Virus record (IMG/VR): IMGVR_UViG_3300042147_000025
Span: 29,121-93,120 of that record
Length of the DNA: 64,000 nucleotides
Strand: one strand, 5' to 3'
Origin: a virus
Shown here: one piece after another, positions 42,196 through 61,361 of the stretch
Layout of the letters: each line of letters begins with the position of its first letter
How positions within the stretch are numbered: position 1 is the first letter of the stretch
Made by a program: the position numbers and the translations under genes
The notes under the pieces: generated by a model
Database searches by the model: none
Told to the model about the DNA's origin: nothing
The model's input: the letters and a program-made list of their open reading frames with translations, nothing else

Positions 42196-42271
42196 TGGTG
42201 CCGTCACTAAGATTCGAACTCAGGACATCTTGCTTACAAGGCAAGCGCTCTACCGCTGGAGCTATAACGGC
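42196..42271 (-). tRNA. tRNA-Thr(UGU)
   Basis: Full cloverleaf, anticodon loop CT-TGT-AA, encoded CCA. Confidence 0.95.
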
Positions 42272-42276
42272 GAAAT

Positions 42277-42353
42277 TGGCTGGATATCGTGGGCTCGAAC
42301 CACGGACATTCGGATTAACAGTCCGATGCAACTACCAACTGTGCTAATATCCA
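42277..42353 (-). tRNA. tRNA-Asn(GUU)
   Basis: Cloverleaf, CT-GTT-AA, G73, encoded CCA. Confidence 0.93.
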
Positions 42354-48105: not shown

Positions 48106-48891
48106 ATGGGAAGTCACGCTAAACACTTTATCGAAATTATTGACGGTATCGAAGTCGAGCAACCAAGGAAGAAAACACGACGGACCCGTCAGGGTGGGAA
48201 ACCAGAAGCTGTTGCAGCTAAGTTTAAGGAAGAAAAAGAAATTCGCGTGAAGCCAATCACAGCTAAAACAGAAAATCAGAAGTTGTACCTTGACAGTCTG
48301 CAAAGCAATGCAATCACGGTCGGGAGAGGCAGTGCAGGTTCGGGAAAATCGTGGTGTGCGGCTAGTGTTGCAGCGAATAAGTACCTTAAAGGTGAAATTG
48401 ATCAGATCGTAGTAATGCGACCACTAGTTGGTATGGGTAAATCTTCAGGATTTTGGCCCGGCGACATTCGCGCCAAGTTGGAACCGTACCTTTTGCCGAT
48501 CTTGAATACAATTAAAGACACAATTGGTGCTGCAAAGTATGAAGCTGACTTTGGTAAGAGTATTTTGATTCAGCCAATGGAAGCGGTACGCGGTATGAAC
48601 TTCGATTCTCGGGTTTATGTAATCGTGGACGAAAGCCAGAACTGCACTCCAGATGAGATTCGCAGCCTAGTTACTCGGATGGCTTCAGGTAGCCAAGCAG
48701 CCTATTGCGGTGATGATAAGCAGCGGGATATTCCGGGTCTTTCTGGCATTCAATATCTTTGTGATTTGATTAAGAAACATAAGATTCCTAATTGTGGAGT
48801 TGTTGAATTTACACCAGCAGATATTGTGAGGAGTGGACTGACACGAATCTTTGTAGAAATTTTTGAGGAAGAAGGGCCATCGCCCCGTTAG
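48106..48891 (+). CDS. phoH: PhoH-family ATPase
   Basis: GSAGSGKS, RPLV, GFWPGD, PY, RGMNF, DESQN, GDDKQRD, DIVRS. Confidence 0.93.
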   Translation: MGSHAKHFIEIIDGIEVEQPRKKTRRTRQGGKPEAVAAKFKEEKEIRVKPITAKTENQKLYLDSLQSNAITVGRGSAGSGKSWCAASVAANKYLKGEIDQIVVMRPLVGMGKSSGFWPGDIRAKLEPYLLPILNTIKDTIGAAKYEADFGKSILIQPMEAVRGMNFDSRVYVIVDESQNCTPDEIRSLVTRMASGSQAAYCGDDKQRDIPGLSGIQYLCDLIKKHKIPNCGVVEFTPADIVRSGLTRIFVEIFEEEGPSPR

Positions 48892-48899
48892 GAGTTTAA

Positions 48900-49916
48900 A
48901 TGAAAGAGGATATAAAGGATATCACTGGGCAGCGGTTTGGAAGTCTAGTTGCAGTGGAACTAACCGACAAAAGAAGTTCTAGTAGAGCTGTAGTGTGGAA
49001 GTGCCAATGTGATTGTGGTAATGTTGTTGACGTTAATAGCAGCAGCTTGAGGCAGGGGCACACTAAATCGTGTGGTTGTTTTTCTTTTCGACCACGGAAA
49101 TATCAACCAGAGGAGGGAGTCACTTATGGTTATCTTACGTATGTCAATGAAGCACCTAGAATTGTAAGGCCCTCTAAAACTGTAAAAGCTGGTAATTTTA
49201 CATGTATTTGCGGAAAAGAAGTTGTTAAATCTTTCCAAGAAGTATGTAGTGGAAATATTACCTCTTGTGGTTGTATGAAGGGAAAGGCAAATATTAAAGA
49301 CATTACAGGAGAGAAGTTCAACCGACTTACTGCACTTAAGAGTACAGGAGTAATCAAGAACGGAGGTTATATTTGGACTTGTCAGTGTGATTGTGGGACA
49401 ATAAAAGATATACCAATCTCTGCACTAAACTCTGGACAAGTAAAGTCATGTGGCTGTGCTAAAATCACACACGGTATGACAAAAACACCAGCGTGGCGAT
49501 CTTGGGATAGTATGGTGACAAGAATCAAGGACGAAAAATGTAAGGAGTGGTATTGGGATGTCACTATTGATGCTAGGTGGCTTGAACCGGATGGGCAGGG
49601 TTTCATGAACTTTTATGAGGACATGGGTGAGCCTCCAGAAGGACATACGCTGAACAGAGTTCACGGAGCTAAGATTTACTCCAAAGAAACTTGTGAGTGG
49701 GCAACATTAAGCATGCAATCTTTTGATCAGAAACGCAGTAAAATGAATACTTCCGGTAGGACAGGAGTATATTTTAGTGAGAGTGGCTCCAAATGGGTTG
49801 CTCAGATTAAAAAGAACGGTATTGTAACTCAGGTCTACAGAGGTACGTCATTTGAAGAAGCATGTGCAGCGCGAACAGCAGCAGAAATTGAATATTATGG
49901 ATTCTCAAAGGAGTAA
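48900..49916 (+). CDS. HNH/AP2 homing endonuclease with repeated Cys modules
   Basis: DITGQRFG..W.CQCDCG..KSCGC repeats, FYEDMG, NTSGRTGV. Confidence 0.85.
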   Translation: MKEDIKDITGQRFGSLVAVELTDKRSSSRAVVWKCQCDCGNVVDVNSSSLRQGHTKSCGCFSFRPRKYQPEEGVTYGYLTYVNEAPRIVRPSKTVKAGNFTCICGKEVVKSFQEVCSGNITSCGCMKGKANIKDITGEKFNRLTALKSTGVIKNGGYIWTCQCDCGTIKDIPISALNSGQVKSCGCAKITHGMTKTPAWRSWDSMVTRIKDEKCKEWYWDVTIDARWLEPDGQGFMNFYEDMGEPPEGHTLNRVHGAKIYSKETCEWATLSMQSFDQKRSKMNTSGRTGVYFSESGSKWVAQIKKNGIVTQVYRGTSFEEACAARTAAEIEYYGFSKE

Positions 49917-49920
49917 GTAT

Positions 49921-50679
49921 ATGAGTGAAGATAAGTTTGTACCTATGATGGTTGAGCAGTGTGAAGTTTTTCAATCTAGTTACACTAACAATGTCTTTGA
50001 TATCATTCTTGATGACTATATTCGTGAACCTTCATACTACCGACAAGCTTTCCATGTGTTGCGAACGGCTCAGAAAGGGGATCGCGTAAATTTGATCATA
50101 AATAATGGCGGGGGATCTGTGAATTCCGCTATTATGTTTATAAATTTGATCGAAGAAACAGAAGCTGAGGTTCTGGCTGTCTTGGAGGGTGAGACTCATT
50201 CTGCTGCATCGATGATCGCACTTTCGGCTCACGGTGTACATGTCAAGCCTTTTGCATCTATGATGATTCATAACGCCACGTTTGGAACATTTAATACGGT
50301 GCAGAACGTTATCGATCATGTAAACTTTACAAGTACACAGACAGAAAAACTTATCCGCAAAGTCTATAAATCATTCCTCACGGAGCCGGAAATCGAGGAA
50401 GTAATCCGTAATCGTGAGATTTGGCTTACCGGAGAAGAGATTGGTGAACGGTTGGACGTTATGTTTGAAGCTCGTAAGTCCGAAGGGTGTGGCGACCCTA
50501 GCTGTACATCGTGCGGTCCTCAAGGTGATGACTTTGAAGACTTTGATCTTGAAGCCCTAATTGCTGAAAAAGTAGCTGAAGGGATTGAACAACACGAGAA
50601 AAATAAGGCAGCTAAAGAGAAAGCAGCCACTGCAAAATCAGCTAAAGCTTCAAAGAAAATTGTAGAAAAGGTCGAATAA
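49921..50679 (+). CDS. ClpP-like serine protease
   Basis: INNGGG, HSAASMI, MMIH, EIWL. Confidence 0.85.
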   Translation: MSEDKFVPMMVEQCEVFQSSYTNNVFDIILDDYIREPSYYRQAFHVLRTAQKGDRVNLIINNGGGSVNSAIMFINLIEETEAEVLAVLEGETHSAASMIALSAHGVHVKPFASMMIHNATFGTFNTVQNVIDHVNFTSTQTEKLIRKVYKSFLTEPEIEEVIRNREIWLTGEEIGERLDVMFEARKSEGCGDPSCTSCGPQGDDFEDFDLEALIAEKVAEGIEQHEKNKAAKEKAATAKSAKASKKIVEKVE

Positions 50680-50683
50680 TTCA

Positions 50684-50712
50684 TTGACAACGCATGTGGA
50701 GGGCTTTAAACT
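50684..50712 (+). promoter_or_regulatory. sigma70 promoter
   Basis: TTGACA-17-TAAACT, same boxes as 6436-6464. Confidence 0.75.
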
Positions 50713-50742
50713 AGACTCCACTAACACAAAGGAGAGAAATTT

Positions 50743-51664
50743 ATGATTAGCCGAGAAGAGATCGAAGAACTACTTGCAGAACAACAAGCTGACCTTGCTG
50801 CACAGGAAAAGTCAGAGAATTCTGAGGAGGAGGGATGAACATCTTTGACCAACTATATGAAGTACCAGACGAAGATGAGCACCTAGAACCAGATTTTAAC
50901 ATTGACCCTTTTATTTACTATGAATTAGACTTACACTACGCCCAAGGAGAATAACATGACCAGCTATATCTTAGTTAAATCTGACTACGGCCACAAAACA
51001 AATATTGGTGTATTTGACACACAAGAGAAAGCTGAGGCTTATCAGTCGAGGCTTGAGTTGGAGTTGTTTGATAATAGCAATCTTTGTGGTATTAATTTTG
51101 AGATTGAGGAGTTTAGTGTTCAATGAATTATGAAAGCGAAGTTATTGAAGGTTTGGAATCATCTATTGAAGGGTGGCTTTTGGGGGATGAGCAAGACTGT
51201 GTAGAGAATCTGGGAGAAGATGTTACATCCGCAGTTAAAGAAGCTTTGAATTATGAGTAGTGCATATTCAGCATTTGATTCTTTCTTGGATAAGTGTGTT
51301 GATGAGTATTACGAAGATACTGAAGAAGATCTAGAAACAGAAGAGTGGGATGGACCTTACCCGGAGGATGGTTACGATTATGACTACGAGTGAAAAGAAA
51401 ACTAAAGATCCTAAAGTAACAATTGTTGATTTTAATACTTTTACGGACTATGAGTTTATCCCCCCAGCAACCTTCTACATACTCAATGCTATGGGAGACT
51501 ACGTTTTTGTCCATACTGCATCAAGGGCTATTGCTCAAGAGTATATTGATTCTGTATATTCTAAGGGGCGTTATAAAATCGTTGCAAGTAAGCTGCAAAA
51601 GACAGTTAGTAAACTTGAAGGTGGTGGGTACTCCGTGACTGGAACGGAAACTAGGAAAAAGTAA
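50743..51664 (+). other. run of very short acidic ORFs followed by a ~94-aa CDS ending at 51664
   Basis: Successive strong RBS plus ATG sites after the promoter. Confidence 0.5.
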
Positions 51665-52155
51665 TGAAACTCAAACATCAACTTATGTACATGCGTATTG
51701 CAGAAGCTGCTGCTGAAACATCCTCAGGTGTCAGACTCAAGGTTGGTTGTTGCTTAGTCAAGAATAATGCAGTGATTGCTGTTTCTTATAATGGACTCCC
51801 AAGTTTCCTAGAAGGCCCACTGGAAGATAGGGTTTACAGTAATGGTGCAGGTGGTTGGATGGATGTTGAAGAGTTTAAAGAAATCTATCCCTACCAAGAC
51901 GAAGAAGGACATCACTACAAACTTGTTACTAAGCGAGAGTGCAGGCATGCCGAGAAAAACAGTCTTTTGGCACTGGCTAAAAGCAATGAGAGTGCAATCG
52001 GAGCTTCACTTTTCTGCACACACGCATGTTGTGAGCTTTGTTCAATTGATATCATTGACAGTGGGATTACAAAGGTCTATTATCGTAATGACTACCGAAG
52101 CACAGCGGGTCTTGAATACCTTCGTGCGAATAATGTAGAAGTAATTAAAATTTAA
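51664..52155 (+). CDS. dCMP deaminase
   Basis: KVGC, YNG, HAEKN, THACCELC zinc motif. Confidence 0.9.
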   Translation: MKLKHQLMYMRIAEAAAETSSGVRLKVGCCLVKNNAVIAVSYNGLPSFLEGPLEDRVYSNGAGGWMDVEEFKEIYPYQDEEGHHYKLVTKRECRHAEKNSLLALAKSNESAIGASLFCTHACCELCSIDIIDSGITKVYYRNDYRSTAGLEYLRANNVEVIKI

Positions 52156-52165
52156 GGAGAACAAA

Positions 52166-52609
52166 ATGTCTGACGTTGAAATGTACAAAGAGGTACAGGA
52201 AGCAAAGAAACTCTCTGACAAGTGGATTCAACCGGAGGAGATGATTGATACTAAAAAAGTTCAGTTGAAAAGTCTCACTGAGTTTGCCAAAGGTTTGGGA
52301 TATACACGTAATCTTTTACAAGGGTATTTTGCGAGCAACGACTACGACAACAAGAAACGTAGCACCGTTTCATTCCAGACAATGGTAAAATTGCACAATA
52401 ACTTCTATCAAGATTGGCATGGTGGTGATCGTTTTAAATCTCCATTTAATTTCAGCACCTACAAGATTCGTAAGGCCCGTGTAGGTAAGATTGTGCATAA
52501 AGTAAGCCTTACAATGTCTAAGAAAACTGGCTACATTCGAGCAGCCAGTAATATTGTAAGTTTTACACACCAAGAGTATGAAGGCTTCCTTGATCTTAAG
52601 TATCTGTGA
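52166..52609 (+). CDS. hypothetical protein
   Basis: AAGGAG RBS, 147 aa. Confidence 0.7.
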   Translation: MSDVEMYKEVQEAKKLSDKWIQPEEMIDTKKVQLKSLTEFAKGLGYTRNLLQGYFASNDYDNKKRSTVSFQTMVKLHNNFYQDWHGGDRFKSPFNFSTYKIRKARVGKIVHKVSLTMSKKTGYIRAASNIVSFTHQEYEGFLDLKYL

Positions 52610-52617
52610 GGTGAAAC

Positions 52618-52809
52618 ATGGACAGAAGTATTTTGTACCTCTTTTCTGATTCTTCTTGGATGTACGCATGTGAATGGAACCCTAAATTTCACGCAGACAA
52701 AGGAAAATACCACGAAGTAGTTGTGGGTCGTGGTTGGAGTTCCCGTGAAATCAGTGAAATGCTTAAAACTTATTATGAAGAAAATGCATCAACAATATTC
52801 GACCAATAG
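52618..52809 (+). CDS. hypothetical protein
   Basis: GAGGTG RBS. Confidence 0.6.
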   Translation: MDRSILYLFSDSSWMYACEWNPKFHADKGKYHEVVVGRGWSSREISEMLKTYYEENASTIFDQ

Positions 52810-52817
52810 AGATTTAT

Positions 52818-52852
52818 AGAGGGCTTGGGCATTGTGCTTGAGCCCTCTTTTT
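52818..52852 (+). terminator. intrinsic terminator
   Basis: AGAGGGCTTGGGC...GCTTGAGCCCTCT-TTTT. Confidence 0.75.
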
Positions 52853-52888
52853 GTTTATAATGTCTGTACAAATTAAATAGGAGGTTCT

Positions 52889-53419
52889 ATGAACAATTTA
52901 ACAAGTAAAGCTCGTATATTCTCCATAGCCGCGCACGAAGCTGTTCAACAAAAGAGAAAATACACTGGAGAGTCTTACTACCACCATCCAGCAGAGGTTG
53001 CAATGACTGTCTATGCTGCATATGGTACGGATAATATGATTGCAGCGGCATACCTACACGACGTACAGGAAGATTGCAACATTACAAACGAATTGATTGA
53101 GAAGGAGTTTGGAAAAGAAGTCGCTGAACTTGTTGGCTGGCTTTCAGATGTCTCTAAACCAGAAGATGGTAATCGTGCCAAACGTAAAGAGATTGATCGT
53201 ATGCACACAGCGCAGTCTTCACCACAAGCCAAAACAATCAAACTTGCAGACCTTATCTCAAACAGCAAGTCAATTCTTGAACATGACAAAGATTTCGCAA
53301 AGGTTTATATCAAAGAGAAAGAGTTGTTGCTTGAAGTGCTGACTGAAGGTGATGGTACGTTGTATGCACAGGCTAAAGATATTGTAGAGAAGGCTAAGAA
53401 GGAGCTTGGGATTGAATAA
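52889..53419 (+). CDS. HD-domain small alarmone hydrolase (Mesh1/SpoT-HD-like)
   Basis: AH..QKRKYTGESYYHHP.EVA, AAYLHDVQED, FG.EVA.LV, IKLADLISN. Confidence 0.88.
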   Translation: MNNLTSKARIFSIAAHEAVQQKRKYTGESYYHHPAEVAMTVYAAYGTDNMIAAAYLHDVQEDCNITNELIEKEFGKEVAELVGWLSDVSKPEDGNRAKRKEIDRMHTAQSSPQAKTIKLADLISNSKSILEHDKDFAKVYIKEKELLLEVLTEGDGTLYAQAKDIVEKAKKELGIE

Positions 53420-53854
53420 AATACAGCTAGAAAAGAATCTCACACTGTTGCTTAAAGACCTTTCCAGTGCAGACAAACGTTGCAAGAAGATTTCCAAAGC
53501 CTGTGGTCTAGAGGATAACCATCTTATTGAATATGCTATGGAACAAACTAAGCTTGTGCTTGATTACATTGAAAGTTTGAAAGAAGACCCTTGCACGGAA
53601 TGTGGCCTCACTGGTCAACATAAAATGTCATGTGATACACAATACAAGGATAAACAATGAACTTAGTTAAACAAAGAATTAAATGGGAGTATGAATATCA
53701 CTTTGGAAAAGAGCCTTGGTTTCCAGCCTTCTTAGATTACAAGAAGAATAAGGATTCAGAATCTTTCAGGTTGAATGCTGCCATGGAAGAGTTTTTCTGT
53801 TACACTATCGTACTTGAAGAGAAGCTTGCTCACCTAGAGGGAAAATTAAAATGA
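53406..53854 (+). other. two small hypothetical CDSs (53406-53660, 53657-53854)
   Basis: Coupled ORFs. Confidence 0.55.
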
Positions 53855-54519
53855 ATCCAGTAAAATACTTTAGTAAAAATTTCATAGGAAAAGACTTCGT
53901 ATGCGGCGATATTCACGGCTGCTTCAGCAAACTGCAAGAACAATTGTACGTAATTGGATTTGACGAAAAGGTTGACCGTTTGTTCTGTGTAGGCGACTTA
54001 GTAGATCGTGGTCCTGAGTCTCAAGAGTTCTTTACTTGGTTGCGTAAACCTTGGTTCCATTCTGTACGTGGTAATCATGAACAAATGGTTATTGACTCCG
54101 TTCGTGAAGGTGAGCTTGGTCATTCTTCAGGGATGCATGCAATGAATGGGGGTATGTGGTTATATGGGCTGTCTACAGTTGAACAGCAGTGTTATGCACT
54201 GGAAATGGAAGAGATACCTCTAGCTATTGAAGTAGAGACAGCTAAGGGTTTAGTTGGTATTATTCATGCTGAGTGTCCGCTAGGTGATTGGAATCTTTTC
54301 AAATCAATATATGAAAATAACAAAGATCGATTTGATGCTGTTGCTATGTGGGCACGTACTAAGATTACAAATGAAGATAGTTCGGAAGTTGCAGGACTTT
54401 ACAAACTGTACGTAGGTCACACACCAATGAATGATGCAAAGACTCTGGGTAACGTAGAGTATATTGATACTGGTGCGTGTTTCCGTGGTGGTAAGTTTAC
54501 TATTGTGCAGATTAACTAG
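53851..54519 (+). CDS. Ser/Thr protein phosphatase (lambda NinI/PphA-like metallophosphoesterase)
   Basis: GDIHG, VGDLVDRG, RGNHE, HA, GHT, IDTG. Confidence 0.92.
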   Translation: MNPVKYFSKNFIGKDFVCGDIHGCFSKLQEQLYVIGFDEKVDRLFCVGDLVDRGPESQEFFTWLRKPWFHSVRGNHEQMVIDSVREGELGHSSGMHAMNGGMWLYGLSTVEQQCYALEMEEIPLAIEVETAKGLVGIIHAECPLGDWNLFKSIYENNKDRFDAVAMWARTKITNEDSSEVAGLYKLYVGHTPMNDAKTLGNVEYIDTGACFRGGKFTIVQIN

Positions 54520-54530
54520 GAGAAATTAAA

Positions 54531-54893
54531 ATGATCAAGAAAGGAAATCCAGACTTCAAACCGATGTCTGACGCTCAACGCGAAGAAATACGACTTAAAC
54601 GAATTGCAGACCAAGAATACGCACGAGAACACTTGCAACTAGACCGTCCAGACGAAGCATATTGGAAGTCTGAAGCATCTGCCCGAGGAATCCGTATGCC
54701 TCAATGGCACATTCTTGGGAATGAAGTAAAATACATTAAAAGAGCTTGCAAGAAACTTGGCGTTGATGTAAAAGAATACACAGAATCAACAGGCTTTAAA
54801 ACACTCAGGGAATTTGCTGAAACTAACCATAAATTTAATGCTGTAGCCATGGTTGGCTTGGTTATCGAATACGCCGTAGACAAAGGACTCTGA
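54531..54893 (+). CDS. hypothetical protein
   Basis: AGGAG RBS, 120 aa. Confidence 0.7.
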   Translation: MIKKGNPDFKPMSDAQREEIRLKRIADQEYAREHLQLDRPDEAYWKSEASARGIRMPQWHILGNEVKYIKRACKKLGVDVKEYTESTGFKTLREFAETNHKFNAVAMVGLVIEYAVDKGL

Positions 54894-54895
54894 TC

Positions 54896-54948
54896 AATAG
54901 GGTAATTGCGGGAGTAAATAGGGTAAGTTGGCGTAGTTTTACCCTATT
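54896..54948. repeat. three copies of AATAGGGTAA (two direct, one inverted)
   Basis: 54896-54905, 54917-54926 and reverse complement at 54939-54948. Confidence 0.8.
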
Positions 54949-55035
54949 AAAACCGTCCTAGCCAAAAAGAGCTTGCGTACTATGTCTGAGGGTGTTATCC
55001 TTCTTTTAAGGGTATAAAACTCCCTATAGATATTA

Positions 55036-55509
55036 ATGGAGAATATTATGATTAAAAGAATTTTAGCTCTCAGATATGTGTGCAAGAAATATGACTTAAA
55101 ATATCACTTGAAATTCTTCGGTGACGAAGGGTGGATTGCACCTGAAGAGCAGATTATCTGTGTCAGCTTGTTCCAAAAACACTTCTATGAAACCCTCTAT
55201 CACGAAGTGGGACACATGGTGGCAGAAAGGAGTTTGGGCTTTAAGAGGAAATATTTTAAAGCTAGGTGGTTTAGTCGTCTTCAATTCGGTGACTACTATG
55301 ATGTGTTTGTAAGAATTGAGGAAGAAGCTAAGGCTAGTAAATTCGCCATGAGGGTGCTTAAGACTAAGGACAGGACATATCTGAAGAACTCTTGGCACAC
55401 ATACACATCAACAGTTGCTAGGTTGATTCGTTCTGATGAGCTGGATGTGTATGTAAAAACAGTTGCAAAATACAGTAAATACTTTGAAAACAAATTGGAG
55501 ATTAAATGA
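55036..55509 (+). CDS. HExxH zinc-metallopeptidase-like protein
   Basis: LYHEVGH plus downstream EEEAKAS.FA; promoter TTGCGT-17-TATCCT at 54973-55001. Confidence 0.6.
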   Translation: MENIMIKRILALRYVCKKYDLKYHLKFFGDEGWIAPEEQIICVSLFQKHFYETLYHEVGHMVAERSLGFKRKYFKARWFSRLQFGDYYDVFVRIEEEAKASKFAMRVLKTKDRTYLKNSWHTYTSTVARLIRSDELDVYVKTVAKYSKYFENKLEIK

Positions 55510-55510
55510 A

Positions 55511-56018
55511 ATGTTAGTTCTTATATATCTGATTGTTGCGTTAGTTGTCCTATATGTAGAGGCTATAAATTGCTATAGAGATAAAGTGAAGTTAAATCTT
55601 GTACATGAGGCTGTATTCTCAGTTTTGTGGATTGTAACTCTTCCTCTGGCCATTTACACTATTTGGAAGGAGTAGAAATGAGTTTATTTGAAGACTGGTA
55701 TCTCACTTATTTCCAAGACTTTATTGATCTTGAGGAAGATCTTATAAAAAATGAAGATGGGGAGTATCTAGACGTGCGGGTGGATTTAATGCACAAAGCC
55801 TTTCTTGCTGGGCAAGTGTTGTGTGAGGAATTTAAATGACCAGAGAATATTCCCATGACAGAGAAGTGATTAAGGACTTCATCCGCTTCTTGTCAGATCA
55901 GCATAAAGCTTGTGTAATTCAGTTTCCTGATGAGTTTGCAGCTAATAGTTATGTTAACTATCGTTTTATTAACGTTTCAGAAATATTGGAAGAATTTATT
56001 GAGTGGAGAAAGCAGTGA
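55511..56018 (+). other. three small hypothetical CDSs
   Basis: Coupled ORFs ending at 55675, 55839 and 56018. Confidence 0.55.
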
Positions 56019-56848
56019 GCATTCAAATGCAAAACCAGACAATCATGTTAGGGAATCAGTACATATACGTTTCTATTAAGCCGGGGAAGGTTGGGACTGT
56101 TCCTCTGTTGATCATGAATGGCATTGGAGCGAATACAACTTTACTGACTCCTTTTGTCGAAGCTATGCACGAGTCGAATCCTGATATTGAGATTATTACT
56201 TTCGATGTACCGGGAGTTGGTGGTAGTTCTACACCTTCTCTTCCGTACAGGTTTAGTGGCTTGGCTAAGACCGTTGGACAAATGCTTGATTGTCTCAACT
56301 ACGCACAAGTAGATGTACTTGGCCTAAGCTGGGGTGGATTTTTGGCGTGCCAGTTCGCATATGATTACCCACAAAGATGTAAGAAACTAATCCTATGTGC
56401 TACAGCAACAGGCGTAACATCCGTTCCACCTAGTTTTAAGGTGTTGTCGCTGATGGCTTCACCTAGACGCTACTCTGACTCAGCTTATATGATTGAAGTT
56501 GCACCTCTGATCTACGGTGGAAAGTTTAGAACTGATCCTGAGCTAGCAGTTAAATATGCACAGAAGATGGAAGCTAATAGGTCTGAGAATAAAGCTAATG
56601 CCGCTGGATACAAGTTTCAACAGTTAGCTATTTGTTGGTGGAGCAGCTTGTGGATGCTTCCTTACATTAAACAGCCTACACTTTTGCTCGGTGGTAGTGA
56701 TGATCCAATCATTCCATTGTTGAATATGAAGATTATGAAAGGGTTGATTCCTAATTCTAAACTTCATGTAGTGGATGACGGACATCTTTTCCTTCTTTGT
56801 TCAACTGATGTAGTAACACCTATTATTAATGAGTTTTTGGGGAACTAG
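56015..56848 (+). CDS. phaZ: intracellular mcl-poly(3-hydroxyalkanoate) depolymerase
   Basis: PLLIMNGIGAN, FDVPGVGGSSTP..PYRF.GLAK, GLSWGG, MASPRRY, IYGG.FR.DP, QPTL.L.G.DDPIIPL.NM, DDGHLFL. Confidence 0.9.
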   Translation: MSIQMQNQTIMLGNQYIYVSIKPGKVGTVPLLIMNGIGANTTLLTPFVEAMHESNPDIEIITFDVPGVGGSSTPSLPYRFSGLAKTVGQMLDCLNYAQVDVLGLSWGGFLACQFAYDYPQRCKKLILCATATGVTSVPPSFKVLSLMASPRRYSDSAYMIEVAPLIYGGKFRTDPELAVKYAQKMEANRSENKANAAGYKFQQLAICWWSSLWMLPYIKQPTLLLGGSDDPIIPLLNMKIMKGLIPNSKLHVVDDGHLFLLCSTDVVTPIINEFLGN

Positions 56849-57113: not shown

Positions 57114-59315
57114 ATGCTGGTTGAAATGGACAAGAGCATGCTTTCTGCATTAATCAAGGGTTGTGATCCAGCCTATGAGATTATGGAACATCCACTGATT
57201 AAATCTAAAGGTTATTATTCGGGTGGGCACAATGACAGATGGAACTGGAACAGTTCTTTTGGAGATTGCACAGAGGAACAGTTGTGGGAGACGTATCAGT
57301 TACTGATTACTCCAATACCAAAGAAGGAAACTTGGTATGAGCAACAAATTAGAGAAATTAAGGCTGTTCTATTAGACGGGCAAGATAGAGGAAATCAAGG
57401 GCAGGTGGATGCTTGCCTATTGGAGATTAAGAGACTGGAGAAATTGATGTGACTCAGTTCGAACAAGCTAAACAAAGAGCACGCGAGCTAGATAAACTCC
57501 ACCCTAACTTTATTCACATGGTTGGGATTAGGTATCAGATTATTAGAGTGAGGAAATATGATGAACCAAACAATTGAAGAACGTATGTTAAGTATAGAAC
57601 AACAATTATCAGAGATCAGAAAAGAATTGGGGGAGAGTTTGGTAAGGTATGAGGATAAGAGCTGGTTGAGTAAGGACACTCCTCAGTTCACCCCAATGAC
57701 ACCTAGCAAGTTTAGAGATAAGATGGATAAACTTTGGGAGGCTAGTAAATGAATATTGGTTATTTCTTTGACAACTATGAAAGTGCAAAACAGTACGCAG
57801 ATGACTTGTTTGCTTTGATTTCAAGAAACGTTGACACTGCAAAGTTTAAACAGAAAGACTTGTCCATAGAATACTTTGGTAATAAACTACGGTTTATTGT
57901 TATACGATACCCCAAAGATGTGGATAAAATACAAGGTCATGTGTATGACGGCGTGTTCTTGAAATCAATATTTACATCCGAGGTTGATAGGTTTATTCTT
58001 AGTCGTTTCCGTCCTCGGTGTGCTTGTAAGATTGCTGAAGACTCCGATAAGAAAATTACACTAGTTATGGAGAAGCAACCATGAAAACTCGTAAGACACG
58101 TATTAAGAAGACAACCAAAGCAAGTGGTTCTGTGCAATATACTGCTGAATACAAATGGGGATTTTGGTGGTATCAGTTTAATGACATGATGGCACCTATT
58201 GGTGAACCTCGTTCTATTTGTTACGACTGGATTACTCGTAAAGGGACAGGAAATTTTAATCATTCCCAACAAGAAGCTCAAGACCTAATTGATTTCTATA
58301 TTGCACGGGTTAAACATGTTAACGCTTGTTTGATTGAGAATGAAGTGGTGAAAGTAGAGTGTGAGAGGTATCCATGAAACCTAACGGCTGCAATGTAGAT
58401 GGTTGGGACTTGTTCGAACAGCAGACTAGAGAAGAGTTTGAATATTATGCTGTTCGTAGAGGATATGATATAACACGAGACAGTGAATATAGTTTCTTCT
58501 ATGCGGATAAACGTACAGCGGATGCTTGGGAGATGTATCATCAGGGACATGTTAGTGGGAGGGTGTGGAATGTCTTGTAATTGCTATAGCTACAATTGGT
58601 GTGTAGGAGAAGATCCTGAAGTTGTCTTAGAAGTTCCTAAAGAATTACTTCCAATTATCAGACGTGAAACTGTCTGTGTTGATGCTTGCATTGTAAAAGA
58701 TGTTAAGGCACTATGGAAAGCTGGTATTGTGACACATGGAGCTTGCTGTGGGCACAATAGAATTCCAAAGAATATTGTTTTGGATACTAACATCAGTCAA
58801 GACTTAGTAGATAAGTGCAAAGATATTTTAGGGGAGTCCTTTGAGTTATATGCTTGGATGGATGTGGATAAGGTTTATATTACGAGGGTTGGCTAGTGAA
58901 ACCACTAATCCTTAAAACACCAGAAGGACTTTATGTCTGTGAAATACCTATTGAGAATGAACCAGAAGATAATGCCTCTGACAAGGCTTGGTGGATATGG
59001 GCTGCATGTGGGGTAGGGAATAGTCCTGTCGAGGCTTATAATGATTGGGTGCTTGACTATGAGTCAAAATTGGGAGGATAAGGTGTGATGTCTGATTTCA
59101 AAAGCTGGTACGAAGTTGCTGAATACCTATTAGCTAACAAGTGGAATAGTGTAGACGTAGATAGTACATGGTCATTCACAGAGGATAAGAGTTGGAGTAA
59201 GGTGTATCCTCCTGAAGATGCTAGTGACTATGAGCACTATAAGAATATTGGAGCTGCAATAGAAGACATGATGTATTTTTGTGATGGTGACTTAGGGAGT
59301 GTTAGTAAAGAATGA
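57114..59315 (+). other. cluster of small hypothetical CDSs (57114-57452, 57558-57752, 57749-58084, 58081-58377, 58374-58580, 58570-58896, 58896-59081, 59085-59315)
   Basis: ATGA-coupled ORFs with RBSs. Confidence 0.6.
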
Positions 59316-59530
59316 ATCTTAAACCAGAAGACTTAGAAGTCAGCACATACCCACCCTATAAAACTGGAGGTCAACATGTAGGACTTACTCATAGTGGTGT
59401 GCTGATTGTGCATATTCCTACAGGACTTGGTGTTGTGTCCACTACGGAGAGAAGTCAATATAGGAATAAAGAGAGGGCTTTGACAATGTTGGAAATATTG
59501 GTTGAGTTGGAGGGTGTAAATGCGTCCTAA
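59312..59530 (+). CDS. stand-alone class I release-factor GGQ (peptidyl-tRNA hydrolase) domain
   Basis: LKPEDLEVSTY...GGQHV...SGVLIVHIPTGLGV....ERSQYRNKERAL.ML matches RF1/RF2 domain 3. Confidence 0.88.
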   Translation: MNLKPEDLEVSTYPPYKTGGQHVGLTHSGVLIVHIPTGLGVVSTTERSQYRNKERALTMLEILVELEGVNAS

Positions 59531-59888
59531 ATGCCATTGTGGAAAGATTGCAGGCTATTGGTACAGTCCTATGCTCTATCGAAAGCTTACCTTTGAAGAG
59601 TACCTAAGCAACCATGCTTATTGTGAGGAACATGCTGACACAGAGAACTGGGCTGAATACGAGTATGTAGGATTTCATAAGAAAGGCTGGAGATGGCTGA
59701 AAAGGAAAGAGACTGAATTGTATTTGATTGGCCGTAATGAAAGACTATCTGCACCGTATTATGATGTGAGTCATGTTAAAGCAGATGGGATACGTTGGGC
59801 ACTTGGAAGATATCACAGTATGGAGAATGTTTTGAAAGAGACAGAAGGTTTGGTTGACGTGATTATTAAGGAGGGTTGGTATGAGTAA
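59520..59888 (+). CDS. hypothetical protein with Cys/His motif
   Basis: CHCG...YCEEH. Confidence 0.6.
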   Translation: MRPKCHCGKIAGYWYSPMLYRKLTFEEYLSNHAYCEEHADTENWAEYEYVGFHKKGWRWLKRKETELYLIGRNERLSAPYYDVSHVKADGIRWALGRYHSMENVLKETEGLVDVIIKEGWYE

Positions 59889-60044: not shown

Positions 60045-61361
60045 TTGACTAAAGTAATTGTATATGACCAGCTTCCCGGAACGGGTAAGTCAACACGAAT
60101 GATTGACAAGATAAATAACTCCGACAAAGATCGGAGATTTATTGTTGTTACTCCTTTTCTAAAAGAGTGCCATAGGTATGCAGGTACTACACCAGATATT
60201 GACAGCGGAGATAAACAACTGCCACTGAAAGATACACAAGGGAATATCATTTACAATGGAAATGGCTGTAGTGCATCTGGACGTAGGTTTGAACACCCTG
60301 TGTCTGGATACCGAACTAAGGTAGAGCACATAGCAAAGCTTGTACACGAAGGACGTGACATTGTAACAACACATGCTGCACTGAAGCTCTTTACACCAGA
60401 GACAGTTAAGGATGTAAAAGATGCTGGCTACACTCTTGTAATTGATGAAGAATTAGAATGCATCAGACCGCACCCATGTAAGATGCACAGACGTAAGATG
60501 TTGTTAGGAAGTGGAGCTGTGTATGAGGATGCTTTGGGTTTACTTCGCTGGAATGAAGACTATGATACAAGTGATGATGTTAAGGAGCTAGATGGTTCCG
60601 GTTTTAGTTGGGATATGCAGATTAAATCTTTATGTGATAATGGAAGTCTTGTACTGATTGAAGATGAGAAAGGGAATCGTGATCTGTTCATGTGGGAGTA
60701 TCCTATTGAATTCATCAAAGCATTTGATTCTGTAGAAGTGCTTACCTACATGTTTGAGGGCTCTGTCTTTCACAAATATCTTGACTACTACGGAATTCAG
60801 CACGAGACAATAAGGGGAATTCAACTACCAAGTAATGTGTTTGATTTAATTAGGGTTGTAGATAATCCAAAGATGAATCGTATTGGTGATAGATGGGATA
60901 GTTTTACCGTAGGGGATCAGAAGAGACAGACTAAAGTTAGTGCTCTATCTCAGACAGTAAGGTCTAACCTATACAATTACTTTAACAACAGTACATATGG
61001 GAAGTCGAAGACTGATGAAAGGCTTTGGACTTGTCTTGGTGAGTCTGTTAGTATTTTTAAAGGTGCTGGTTATACTAAACGTCACATTGCTCATAACACC
61101 AAAGCCACCAATGACTATGCAAACAGTAATCAGCTAGCTTATATGTACAATGCTCACATGCATCCAGAGCCTTACAAATATCTACTGGGACGTGGTACTG
61201 AGTTTGCACCTAGTCAAGAGAGGTATTCAATAACAGAGCTTTTACAGTGGACTTACAGGAGTAGTGTACGAAATGATGAACCAATCAACCTGTATATTCC
61301 TAGTGTTAGGATGAGAGGTTTGTTAGAGAAATGGATGAGTGGAAATATGTTTACTAATTAA
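60045..61361 (+). CDS. SF2 / DEAD-like helicase or origin-binding ATPase
   Basis: PGTGKST, VVTP, TTHA, LVIDEE, LTYMF, ELLQW.YRS.VR. Confidence 0.75.
   Translation: MTKVIVYDQLPGTGKSTRMIDKINNSDKDRRFIVVTPFLKECHRYAGTTPDIDSGDKQLPLKDTQGNIIYNGNGCSASGRRFEHPVSGYRTKVEHIAKLVHEGRDIVTTHAALKLFTPETVKDVKDAGYTLVIDEELECIRPHPCKMHRRKMLLGSGAVYEDALGLLRWNEDYDTSDDVKELDGSGFSWDMQIKSLCDNGSLVLIEDEKGNRDLFMWEYPIEFIKAFDSVEVLTYMFEGSVFHKYLDYYGIQHETIRGIQLPSNVFDLIRVVDNPKMNRIGDRWDSFTVGDQKRQTKVSALSQTVRSNLYNYFNNSTYGKSKTDERLWTCLGESVSIFKGAGYTKRHIAHNTKATNDYANSNQLAYMYNAHMHPEPYKYLLGRGTEFAPSQERYSITELLQWTYRSSVRNDEPINLYIPSVRMRGLLEKWMSGNMFTN

What the first reader, a model, noticed from the sequence alone, without database searches (positions are those of the whole stretch)
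59312..59530. 72-aa stand-alone GGQ release-factor domain
Seen: the whole protein is RF domain 3 (GGQHV, HIPTG, ERSQYRNK..AL) with no codon-recognition domains and no basic C-terminal tail (ends ELEGVNAS). Known: RF1/RF2 need domains 2/4 and ArfB needs its basic tail to engage ribosomes; PrmC methylates GGQ. Inference: a minimal ribosome-rescue or peptidyl-tRNA hydrolase factor that needs a partner or acts on split 50S subunits, or a decoy for PrmC or RF-targeting defences.
Basis: partly seen in the sequence, partly recalled or inferred. Interest (0 to 1): 0.75.

Follow-up and report, generated by a model that had tools for sequence, protein, structure and literature searches.

The report
Phage bare GGQ release-factor domain
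A complete 93-kb rhizosphere phage carries a well-conserved 72-residue gene that is only the peptide-releasing (GGQ) domain of bacterial release factors, one member of a large, catalogued but untested phage family that most likely acts at the ribosome's catalytic centre.

Summary
ORF 59312-59530 (+) encodes 72 aa that match only release-factor domain 3 (Pfam RF-1, 57.9 bits). The confident model (pLDDT 89) has three strands and one helix and superposes on RF1/RF2 domain 3. There are no codon-reading domains and no ArfB tail, and the protein has a net charge of -2.

The gene is real. About 30 close homologs of 67-87 aa, on 85-94 kb phage genomes, keep GGQ in 29 of 31 cases, and dN/dS is 0.08-0.28.

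It belongs to a broad phage family of about 70-aa bare GGQ domains (PHROG 20323/35727). Within that family Q is replaced by M at least three times. Relatives add other modules, including an L7/L12 C-terminal fragment and Cys-rich tails.

No neighbouring gene is a fixed partner. The overlapping downstream ORF is absent from three complete relatives. A homodimer prediction passed its controls (0.47 against 0.01).

Best reading (about 0.4): an anchor-less, codon-independent peptidyl-tRNA hydrolase module that clears stalled ribosomes or 50S-peptidyl-tRNA during infection, possibly as a dimer. Function is untested, and I found no paper on this family.

This scan had already flagged the same family on other DNA (e1-5796990 and others). 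Interest is moderate.

The parts
59312..59530 (+). 72-aa ORF encoding a bare release-factor domain 3 (GGQ domain), stop codon included
   Evidence: homologs; dN/dS
59366..59374 (+). GGA GGT CAA = Gly19-Gly20-Gln21, the GGQ motif in the loop between strand 1 and strand 2
   Evidence: sequence. G20 is invariant and G19 and Q21 are at least 90% conserved in the close family. Across the wider family sample of 85 rows Q is 65, M 14 and other 6.
59447..59467 (+). Codons 46-52, ERSQYRN, at the start of the helix equivalent to RF helix alpha7. E46, R47, S48, Q49 and N52 are invariant in the close family.
   Evidence: the same residues are 100% conserved in the cellular RF sample
59402..59446 (+). Codons 31-45 (strand 2, HIPTG turn, strand 3). 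With helix residues 59, 62, 63 and 66 they form the predicted symmetric homodimer interface. They include class-specific changes: RF R31 to L and RF Q42 to V.
59085..59315 (+). Upstream 76-aa ORF overlapping by ATGA. It is context only and not a conserved neighbour.
   Evidence: adjacent to the GGQ gene only in L006 and L007
59520..59888 (+). Downstream 122-aa Cys/His-containing ORF with an 11-nt overlap, in the +1 frame. It is a conserved phage protein but not an obligate partner or a fused half.

Best explanation
The gene encodes a free-standing copy of the catalytic (peptidyl-tRNA hydrolysis) domain of class I release factors, cut at the domain boundaries. The most likely mechanism is this. 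The domain enters the 50S A site, places its GGQ loop in the peptidyl-transferase centre and triggers codon-independent hydrolysis of peptidyl-tRNA. Because it has no mRNA-channel or decoding-centre sensor, it would act only where the A site stays open for a long time. Such sites are 70S ribosomes stalled with an empty A site, for example after host mRNA or tRNA cleavage during infection, and split 50S-peptidyl-tRNA complexes. The outcome would be ribosomes recycled for phage translation. The missing anchor may be supplied by self-association, with one copy catalytic and the other bracing it, or by mass action from strong early expression. What is shown: domain identity, fold, conservation of the catalytic motifs, purifying selection, absence of any anchor module, absence of a fixed phage-encoded neighbour, and a dimer prediction that passes its controls. 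What is inferred: ribosome binding, hydrolysis, substrate choice and the benefit to the phage.
For: (1) The protein is 44-53% identical to domain 3 of full-length cellular RF1/RF2. It keeps every residue that is invariant in both groups: G19, G20, Q21, H22, H34, P36, T37, G38, E46, R47, S48, Q49, N52 and A56. This is what one expects if the PTC-facing surface is still in use. (2) dN/dS is 0.08-0.28 across eight phage genomes. (3) The fold is a confident match to ribosome-bound RF1/RF2 domain 3. (4) In the wider family the only recurrent replacement of Q is M, with at least 3 changes, and the two glycines are kept. The literature places catalysis on the Gly-dependent backbone conformation and the Gln main-chain amide, with the side chain acting by packing (PMC4691834). 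A long unbranched Met is therefore compatible with a PTC role. (5) Relatives fuse the same domain to a fragment of the ribosomal L7/L12 C-terminal domain (Pfam PF00542, 25.6-30 bits). Others lie inside tRNA arrays (PMC5966550). This ties the family to the translation apparatus. (6) Homodimer prediction scored 0.47 against a best control of 0.01. That mark was reached by 20 of 30 proteins solved as homodimers and 1 of 23 solved as monomers. The runs agreed in at least 90% of contacts, and partner pLDDT was 67-69. Two GGQ domains flipped about 180 degrees do fit in the A-site space of a 70S ribosome with ArfB (PMC7641280). (7) The factor that releases peptides from bacterial 50S-peptidyl-tRNA complexes is still unknown, and GGQ proteins are candidates (PMC9757039). 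(8) The gene lies in a plus-strand run with PhoH, an HD_4 (small alarmone hydrolase-like) protein and other host-physiology genes.
Against: No characterised GGQ protein works without an anchor. ArfB loses ribosome binding and activity when single tail residues are changed (PMC3950681). The phage family has lost basic residues that are nearly invariant in the cellular RF sample (R14 to P, R31 to L/K, R/K61 to E). Its domain net charge is 0 against +3, which argues for weaker rRNA binding or a changed binding mode. A sister clade has GGF/SGW in place of GGQ, so part of the superfamily may not hydrolyse at all. One close relative (L006) carries a stop at Gly19, so the gene is dispensable at least sometimes. 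The phage has no recognisable rescue partner: no S4/Hsp15-like, RtcB, PTH2 or L12-like gene. Hydrophobic changes are not significantly enriched at the predicted dimer interface (p=0.39). There are no biochemical data.
Confidence: 0.4

Rival explanations
1. A-site or PTC blocker, or a premature terminator used for host shut-off. The bare domain would occupy the 50S A site, or release nascent chains indiscriminately. This would damp host translation or compete with host RF1/RF2 and rescue factors rather than rescue ribosomes.
For: It has no sensor to restrict it to stalled ribosomes. It lies in an early or accessory gene region full of small host-takeover-type ORFs. Some relatives lack the catalytic Gln (GGM, GGF, SGW), which would suit a binder rather than an enzyme.
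Against: It would hit phage translation equally. The close family keeps GGQ strictly, in 29 of 31 members. Loss of conserved basic residues argues against tight occupancy of an rRNA site. No toxicity data exist.
Confidence: 0.2
2. A catalytic module that depends on a partner. The domain would be brought to the ribosome by a host protein (an ArfA/BrfA-like adaptor, an S4/Hsp15-type protein, a translational GTPase or the L7/L12 stalk) or by a non-adjacent phage protein. This would resemble mtRF-R with MTRES1.
For: All known GGQ factors need an anchor (PMC3950681; PMC9757039). Relatives carry added modules in cis, namely an L12 C-terminal fragment, Cys-rich tails and long C-terminal extensions. 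Class-specific hydrophobic residues sit on strand 3 and the helix. Earlier scan notes report GGQ-only genes alongside L7/L12-like genes in other phages (unverified).
Against: No neighbouring gene is conserved with it, and the overlapping ORF is absent from three complete relatives. There is no S4, L12, RtcB or PTH2 gene in this genome. The exposed surface is equally well explained by the predicted homodimer.
Confidence: 0.2
3. Decoy or sink for the host GGQ methyltransferase PrmC (HemK), or for another factor that recognises RF domain 3. This would lower host RF methylation and termination efficiency.
For: The protein is 44-53% identical to the domain that PrmC recognises. The model superposes on RF1 in the RF1-PrmC crystal complex 2b3t (TMq 0.77, rmsd 2.5 Å). 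The loop length around GGQ is unchanged.
Against: Recurrent Q-to-M in the family removes the methyl acceptor. The residues flanking GGQ differ systematically from RFs: RASGA becomes PPxxx, and N24 becomes G. The benefit to a lytic phage that needs termination is unclear. No phage methyltransferase link was found.
Confidence: 0.07
4. A decaying remnant of a captured release-factor gene with no function.
For: One relative (L006) has a nonsense codon at Gly19. The gene lies in a mosaic accessory region.
Against: dN/dS is 0.08-0.28. Ends are identical in about 30 homologs. The catalytic motifs are invariant. The fold prediction is confident. Bare-domain forms recur across many phage lineages.
Confidence: 0.03

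Closest known systems
Domain 3 (GGQ / peptidyl-tRNA hydrolysis domain) of bacterial class I release factors RF1 and RF2
   Same: Same fold (TMq 0.69-0.79) and 44-53% identity. GGQHV, H..PTG and ERSQ..N..A motifs are the same, the GGQ loop has the same length, and the sequence follows RF2 helix alpha7 as far as the ..L.ELE stretch.
   Different: Domains 1, 2 and 4 and the switch loop are absent, so no stop codon can be read. The conserved basic residues R14, R31 and R/K61 are replaced. N24 becomes G and A29 becomes G. Net charge is 0 instead of +3.
ArfB (YaeJ) / ICT1 codon-independent rescue factors
   Same: A small protein built around a GGQ domain with no codon recognition. ArfB can also sit as two flipped GGQ domains in the A site (PMC7641280).
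   Different: There is no linker or basic C-terminal helix, which ArfB needs for binding and activity (PMC3950681). The model shows no inserted alpha-i helix between strands 2 and 3. The NCBIfam ArfB model scores only 14.6 bits against a cut-off of 100, and no ArfB chain appears among PDB sequence hits at E<=1.
mtRF-R (C12orf65) with MTRES1, which rescues split large subunits carrying peptidyl-tRNA
   Same: A GGQ domain used away from stop codons on a large subunit with an open A site. This is a functional analogy for the 50S hypothesis (PMC9757039).
   Different: Sequence similarity is weak (PDB E=0.05-0.09). mtRF-R has a C-terminal extension and an S4-domain partner, and this phage has no S4-domain gene.
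PrfH (RF-H)
   Same: A shortened RF homolog with a GGQ domain. Some phage contigs found here carry PrfH-like genes.
   Different: PrfH keeps a domain 2/4-like module and usually pairs with RtcB. Here TIGR03072 scores 46 bits against a cut-off of 167, and there is no RtcB.
Phage families PHROG 35727 / 20323 ('RF-1 domain peptide chain release factor') and GenBank phage genes annotated 'peptide chain release factor 1'
   Same: The window protein is a member (E=1.4e-18 and 1.1e-11). Cultured examples of the bare form include Pseudomonas phage Boevelstad (75 aa, 59% identity) and 76-aa proteins of Acinetobacter phages 133 and Henu6.
   Different: These are annotation labels only, and I found no functional study. 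Named relatives such as phiPsa347 are longer (131 aa), read GGM and carry an L12-like fragment.

Membership tests
Pfam RF-1 domain (PF00472) | Score above the gathering threshold of the RF-1 HMM | tested here: met
   57.9 bits against a cut-off of 35, covering profile positions 6-69 of 116
Pfam RF-1 domain (PF00472) | GGQ tripeptide in the loop between strand 1 and strand 2 | tested here: met
   G19-G20-Q21, kept in 29 of 31 close homologs
Class I release factor RF1/RF2 | Codon-recognition superdomain (PCRF domain, domains 2/4 with the PxT or SPF motif) and full length of about 350 aa | tested here: not met
   The protein is only 72 aa. prfA scores 58 bits against a cut-off of 423 and prfB 54.5 against 370. 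There is no PCRF match.
ArfB / ICT1 | Flexible linker plus basic C-terminal helix that enters the mRNA channel | tested here: not met
   The protein ends ..VELEGVNAS and has a net charge of -2
ArfB / ICT1 | Inserted helix alpha-i in the GGQ domain, and a match to the ArfB equivalog model | tested here: not met
   The model has a tight turn between strands 29-34 and 39-43. NF006718 scores 14.6 bits against a cut-off of 100.
PrfH | N-terminal domain 2/4-like module, the TIGR03072 equivalog score, and linkage to RtcB | tested here: not met
   46.1 bits against a cut-off of 166.65. There is no RtcB in the genome.
mtRF-R/MTRES1-type 50S rescue | An S4-domain partner and a C-terminal extension that contacts it | tested here: not met
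   No S4 domain in the 93-kb genome and no extension. A host-encoded partner cannot be tested here.
Phage bare GGQ-domain family (PHROG 35727/20323) | Significant match to the PHROG profiles, length of about 65-100 aa, and the signature (Y/W)PPxxxGGQHVG | tested here: met
   The motif STYPPYKTGGQHVG is present. The window protein falls inside the 71-row bare-domain clade, SH-aLRT 97.
Any GGQ release or rescue factor | Ribosome-dependent peptidyl-tRNA hydrolase activity | not testable with these tools
   Needs biochemistry

The most novel reading that the evidence does not exclude
The bare GGQ domain is a self-sufficient viral release factor of a new type. As a homodimer, one copy would insert into the peptidyl-transferase centre while the other replaces the missing anchor. 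It would hydrolyse peptidyl-tRNA on split 50S subunits or on vacant-A-site ribosomes produced by host mRNA or tRNA cleavage. That would make it a phage counter-measure to translation-targeting defences and an example of the still-unidentified class of factor that clears bacterial 50S-peptidyl-tRNA complexes.
Probability: 0.2. Interest if true: 0.8.

Novelty: new variant of a known kind. Interest (0 to 1): 0.55.

Why it matters
Every studied GGQ protein (RF1/RF2, ArfB/ICT1, mtRF-R, PrfH) couples the catalytic domain to a module that tells it when to fire. A widespread and selectively maintained phage family that keeps only the catalytic domain asks two questions: what is the minimum needed for peptide release, and how do phages manage stalled ribosomes? 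If active, it would be the smallest release factor known. It would also be a simple tool for codon-independent release, and a lead to the missing bacterial factor for 50S-peptidyl-tRNA complexes. If it is a blocker or a decoy, it is a new host-takeover mechanism. The recurrent GGQ-to-GGM change and the fusions to an L7/L12 fragment in relatives give ready-made natural variants for testing.

Tried and rejected
- **Split gene or RF2-style +1 frameshift joining the GGQ ORF to the overlapping 122-aa ORF: rejected.** None of 36 homolog clusters of that ORF carries PF00472. The ORF is absent from three complete relatives and broken in a fourth.
- **Conserved adjacent partner: rejected.** Neighbours differ among close relatives.
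- **Tail-less ArfB: rejected**.
- **Defence-system component:** no PADLOC hit for it or for four neighbours.
- **Phage-encoded rescue or RNA-repair partners:** no L12, S4, RtcB or PTH2 match in the genome, and only two tRNAs.
- **Prophage or cellular copies of the close family:** the genome-contig scan returned only full-length cellular RF1/RF2 at 53% identity or less.
- **Near-identical cultured phage:** megablast of 5 kb found none.
- **Hydrophobic class-specific changes enriched at the predicted dimer interface:** not significant, p=0.39, although the two largest shifts (positions 42 and 31) lie in it.
- **Promoter and terminator scan:** uninformative.
- **Expression:** no RNA holder listed among sequencing runs, and read laying was not used.
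Context came from the search for related loci instead.
- **Literature:** four searches found no study of phage bare GGQ proteins.
- **A PrmC complex prediction was not run.** A pass would only echo the solved RF1-PrmC structure.
Full report
**1. The observation**

The ORF at 59312-59530 (+) is present as described. It has an ATG start and a TAA stop and encodes 72 aa containing TGGQHVG, HIPTG and ERSQYRNKERAL, ending ELEGVNAS. Pfam RF-1 matches at E=1.2e-15 (57.9 bits, cut-off 35), but only over profile positions 6-69 of 116. The best PDB sequence matches are RF2 and RF1 at residues of about 217-292, which is domain 3. PrfH is weaker, C12orf65 is marginal, and ArfB is absent at E<=1.

NCBIfam gives the same ranking. 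prfA scores 58 bits, prfB 54.5 and prfH 46, all far below their full-length cut-offs, and ArfB scores only 14.6 bits.

An AlphaFold2 model built on a 55-sequence alignment is confident (pLDDT 89.1). It has strands at 8-13, 29-34 and 39-43 and a helix at 49-71. Foldseek places it on domain 3 of ribosome-bound RF1/RF2 with TMq 0.69-0.79. The protein is therefore a clean excision of RF domain 3, from the domain 2-3 linker to about two thirds of helix alpha7. It is not a tail-less ArfB.

**2. Where it sits**

The window is bases 29121-93120 of a complete 93,120-bp virus record with 127-bp direct terminal repeats. The phage is a myovirus, with sheath, baseplate, tape measure and a terminase about 40-43% identical to those of Pseudomonas phages. 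GC content is about 41%. It has two tRNAs.

The same DNA is held by rhizosphere metagenomes from at least three studies, one of which is probably the source.

The gene lies in a tightly packed plus-strand run of small ORFs. That run also holds PhoH, a Clp-protease-like protein, dCMP deaminase, an HD_4 (alarmone-hydrolase-type) protein, a metallophosphatase and an alpha/beta hydrolase. The gene overlaps its upstream neighbour by ATGA and its downstream neighbour by 11 nt.

**3. It is a real, selected gene**

A search of 5.8 billion proteins found 33 clusters at 52-100% identity. Most are 67-87 aa and several lie on 88-94 kb contigs. In the alignment G20, H34, E46, R47, S48, Q49 and N52 are invariant. 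GGQ is intact in 29 of 31 sequences, with one CGQ and one GGM.

Codon alignments with seven IMG/VR relatives give dN/dS of 0.08-0.28. One relative (L006) has GGA changed to TGA at Gly19. This is either a null allele or a sequencing error.

**4. The wider family**

An exhaustive HMMER search of 1.84 billion cluster representatives gave 4,295 hits. Of the best 150, 50 are 100 aa or shorter. Most of those carry a signature distinct from cellular RFs, (Y/W)PPxxxGGQHVG, and end shortly after the helix.

PHROGs already holds such families (35727, 19918, 20323). GenBank phages carry them under the labels 'peptide chain release factor 1' or 'hypothetical protein'. BFVD shows 72-76-aa examples in Acinetobacter phages 133 and Henu6 and in Cellulophaga phage phi14:2.

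IMG/VR loci show several architectures:
- bare forms of 68-79 aa;
- Otagovirus-type proteins in which a GG(M/Q) domain is followed by a fragment matching positions ~10-37 of the L7/L12 C-terminal domain (25.6-30 bits) and often by a Cys-rich tail;
- a clade with GGF, SGW or SAW in place of GGQ and long C-terminal extensions;
- PrfH-like proteins with a PCRF fragment.

Two loci lie in or beside tRNA arrays. This echoes a report of RF-1-domain genes in mycobacterial tRNA arrays (PMC5966550).

On a weakly resolved tree of 85 domains the bare and Otagovirus-type forms make one clade (SH-aLRT 97). The window's 15-row subclade is all GGQ. At least three Q/M changes are needed, and no other residue replaces Q inside that clade.

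In 185,579 bacterial and archaeal species genomes the best 80 matches are all full-length RF-sized frames (median 363 aa) at 44-53% identity.

**5. How it differs from cellular domain 3**

I compared 55 family members with 80 cellular RFs position by position. The cellular set was picked by a motif scan, so it is not a random sample. Both groups keep GGQHV, H34, PTG, ERSQ, N52 and A56.

The phage family replaces residues that are nearly invariant in RFs: R14 to P, N24 to G, A29 to G, R31 to L/K, Q42 to V/I, Q44 to variable, R/K61 to E, and Y64 to L/V. Net charge over positions 3-61 has a median of 0 against +3 for the RFs. The PTC-facing motifs are thus retained, while several basic or polar surface positions have become neutral or hydrophobic.

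**6. Partner tests**

Among close relatives the flanking genes differ. The overlapping 122-aa ORF has 36 homolog clusters, none fused to RF-1. It is absent from three complete relatives that keep the GGQ gene and is broken in a fourth. The genome has no L12-like, S4, RtcB or PTH2 gene, and there is no PADLOC hit.

A homodimer prediction reached the tool's mark. The score was 0.47 against a best control of 0.01. That mark was reached by 20 of 30 proteins solved as homodimers and by 1 of 23 solved as monomers. The runs agreed in at least 90% of contacts, and pLDDT was 67-69. The interface is symmetric, formed by strand 3 (residue 41 against 41) and helix residues 59, 62, 63 and 66.

The two largest hydrophobic shifts relative to RFs (positions 42 and 31) lie in this interface. 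Enrichment over all interface positions is not significant (p=0.39). The prediction supports self-association but does not demonstrate it.

**7. Mechanism**

Published work establishes four relevant points:
- The two glycines and the Gln main-chain amide carry catalysis, and the Gln side chain contributes packing (PMC4691834).
- ArfB depends on its C-terminal tail for ribosome binding (PMC3950681).
- Two ArfB GGQ domains, flipped about 180 degrees, can occupy the A-site space, with the second contacting P-site tRNA and H69 (PMC7641280).
- The factor that releases peptides from bacterial 50S-peptidyl-tRNA complexes is unknown, and in mitochondria a GGQ protein does this job (PMC9757039).

Against that background, my best reading (about 0.4) is an anchor-less, codon-independent peptidyl-tRNA hydrolase module. 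It would work on ribosomal complexes whose A site stays open, which are likely to pile up when host mRNAs or tRNAs are cut during infection. The dimer or high expression would make up for the missing anchor.

The rivals are:
- an A-site blocker or premature terminator for host shut-off (0.2);
- a catalytic module that needs a host or distant phage partner (0.2);
- a PrmC or other domain-3-binder decoy (0.07), weakened by recurrent Q-to-M;
- a functionless remnant (0.03), contradicted by selection.

All functional steps are inferred, and nothing has been assayed.

**8. Novelty**

The domain and the phage family are catalogued (Pfam, PHROGs, GenBank labels). This scan had already flagged the same family on other genomes (e1-5796990 and others; a GGM form and co-occurrence with L12-like genes). 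This instance is therefore not a discovery of a new family.

Relative to characterised systems it is a new variant of a known kind: a GGQ factor with no targeting module. I found no paper that studies it. Interest is moderate, 0.55. The question is clear and cheap to test, and cultured phages with the bare form exist.

Noticed in passing
L012:3998-4390, L013:3998-4486, L014:3998-4489, L018:3998-4516, L020:4001-4477; L002:3001-3396 (Pseudomonas phage phiPsa347): Otagovirus-type relatives fuse the GGQ-like domain (mostly GGM; GGQ in L014) to a fragment matching positions ~10-37 of the ribosomal L7/L12 C-terminal domain (PF00542, 25.6-30 bits; ..NKVxMIKxVRExxGCGLKEAKEA..). From memory, that is the part of L12 that binds translational GTPases. 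Several also end in a Cys-rich, probably zinc-binding, tail.
   Followed up: partly
L024:3998-4612, L025:3995-5020, L027/L028:3812-4738, L029:3695-4390, L031:3983-4471, L033:3638-4201: A separate phage clade of RF-1-domain proteins has GGF, SGW or SAW where GGQ should be, plus long unrelated N- or C-terminal extensions. These are probably non-hydrolytic derivatives of the same fold.
   Followed up: partly
L019:3506-6940; L017:4585-4820: A PrfH-like gene (PCRF fragment plus full RF-1 domain) sits inside an array of 8 tRNA genes on a 183-kb viral contig. A bare 73-aa GGQ gene sits about 400 bp upstream of three tRNA genes on a 68-kb contig.
   Followed up: no
L006:4055-4057: In one 89.9-kb relative the first Gly codon of GGQ is TGA (GGA in the window), while the rest of the gene is 86% identical. 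This is a natural null allele or an assembly error.
   Followed up: partly
window 59520-59888: The downstream 122-aa ORF begins MRPKCHCG and also has a CEEH motif. It has 36 homolog clusters of 121-132 aa in similar-sized phage genomes, no Pfam, PHROG or PADLOC match, and is interrupted by stops in relative G004.
   Followed up: partly
window 48106-56848: A plus-strand run of host-physiology genes: PhoH (48106-48891), Clp-protease-like (49852-50679), dCMP deaminase (51664-52155), HD_4 alarmone-hydrolase-type (52889-53419), metallophosphatase (53851-54519) and alpha/beta hydrolase (56003-56848). The domains were confirmed by Pfam. Whether they act together was not tested.
   Followed up: partly
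window 42196-42353 (- strand): tRNA-Thr(UGU) and tRNA-Asn(GUU) lie side by side. They are the only tRNA genes in the 93-kb genome.
   Followed up: no
window 60045-61361: A 438-aa ORF matches PHROG 2467 (unknown function, E=5.5e-63) and has no Pfam domain. It begins with a Walker-A-like GTGKST motif.
   Followed up: no
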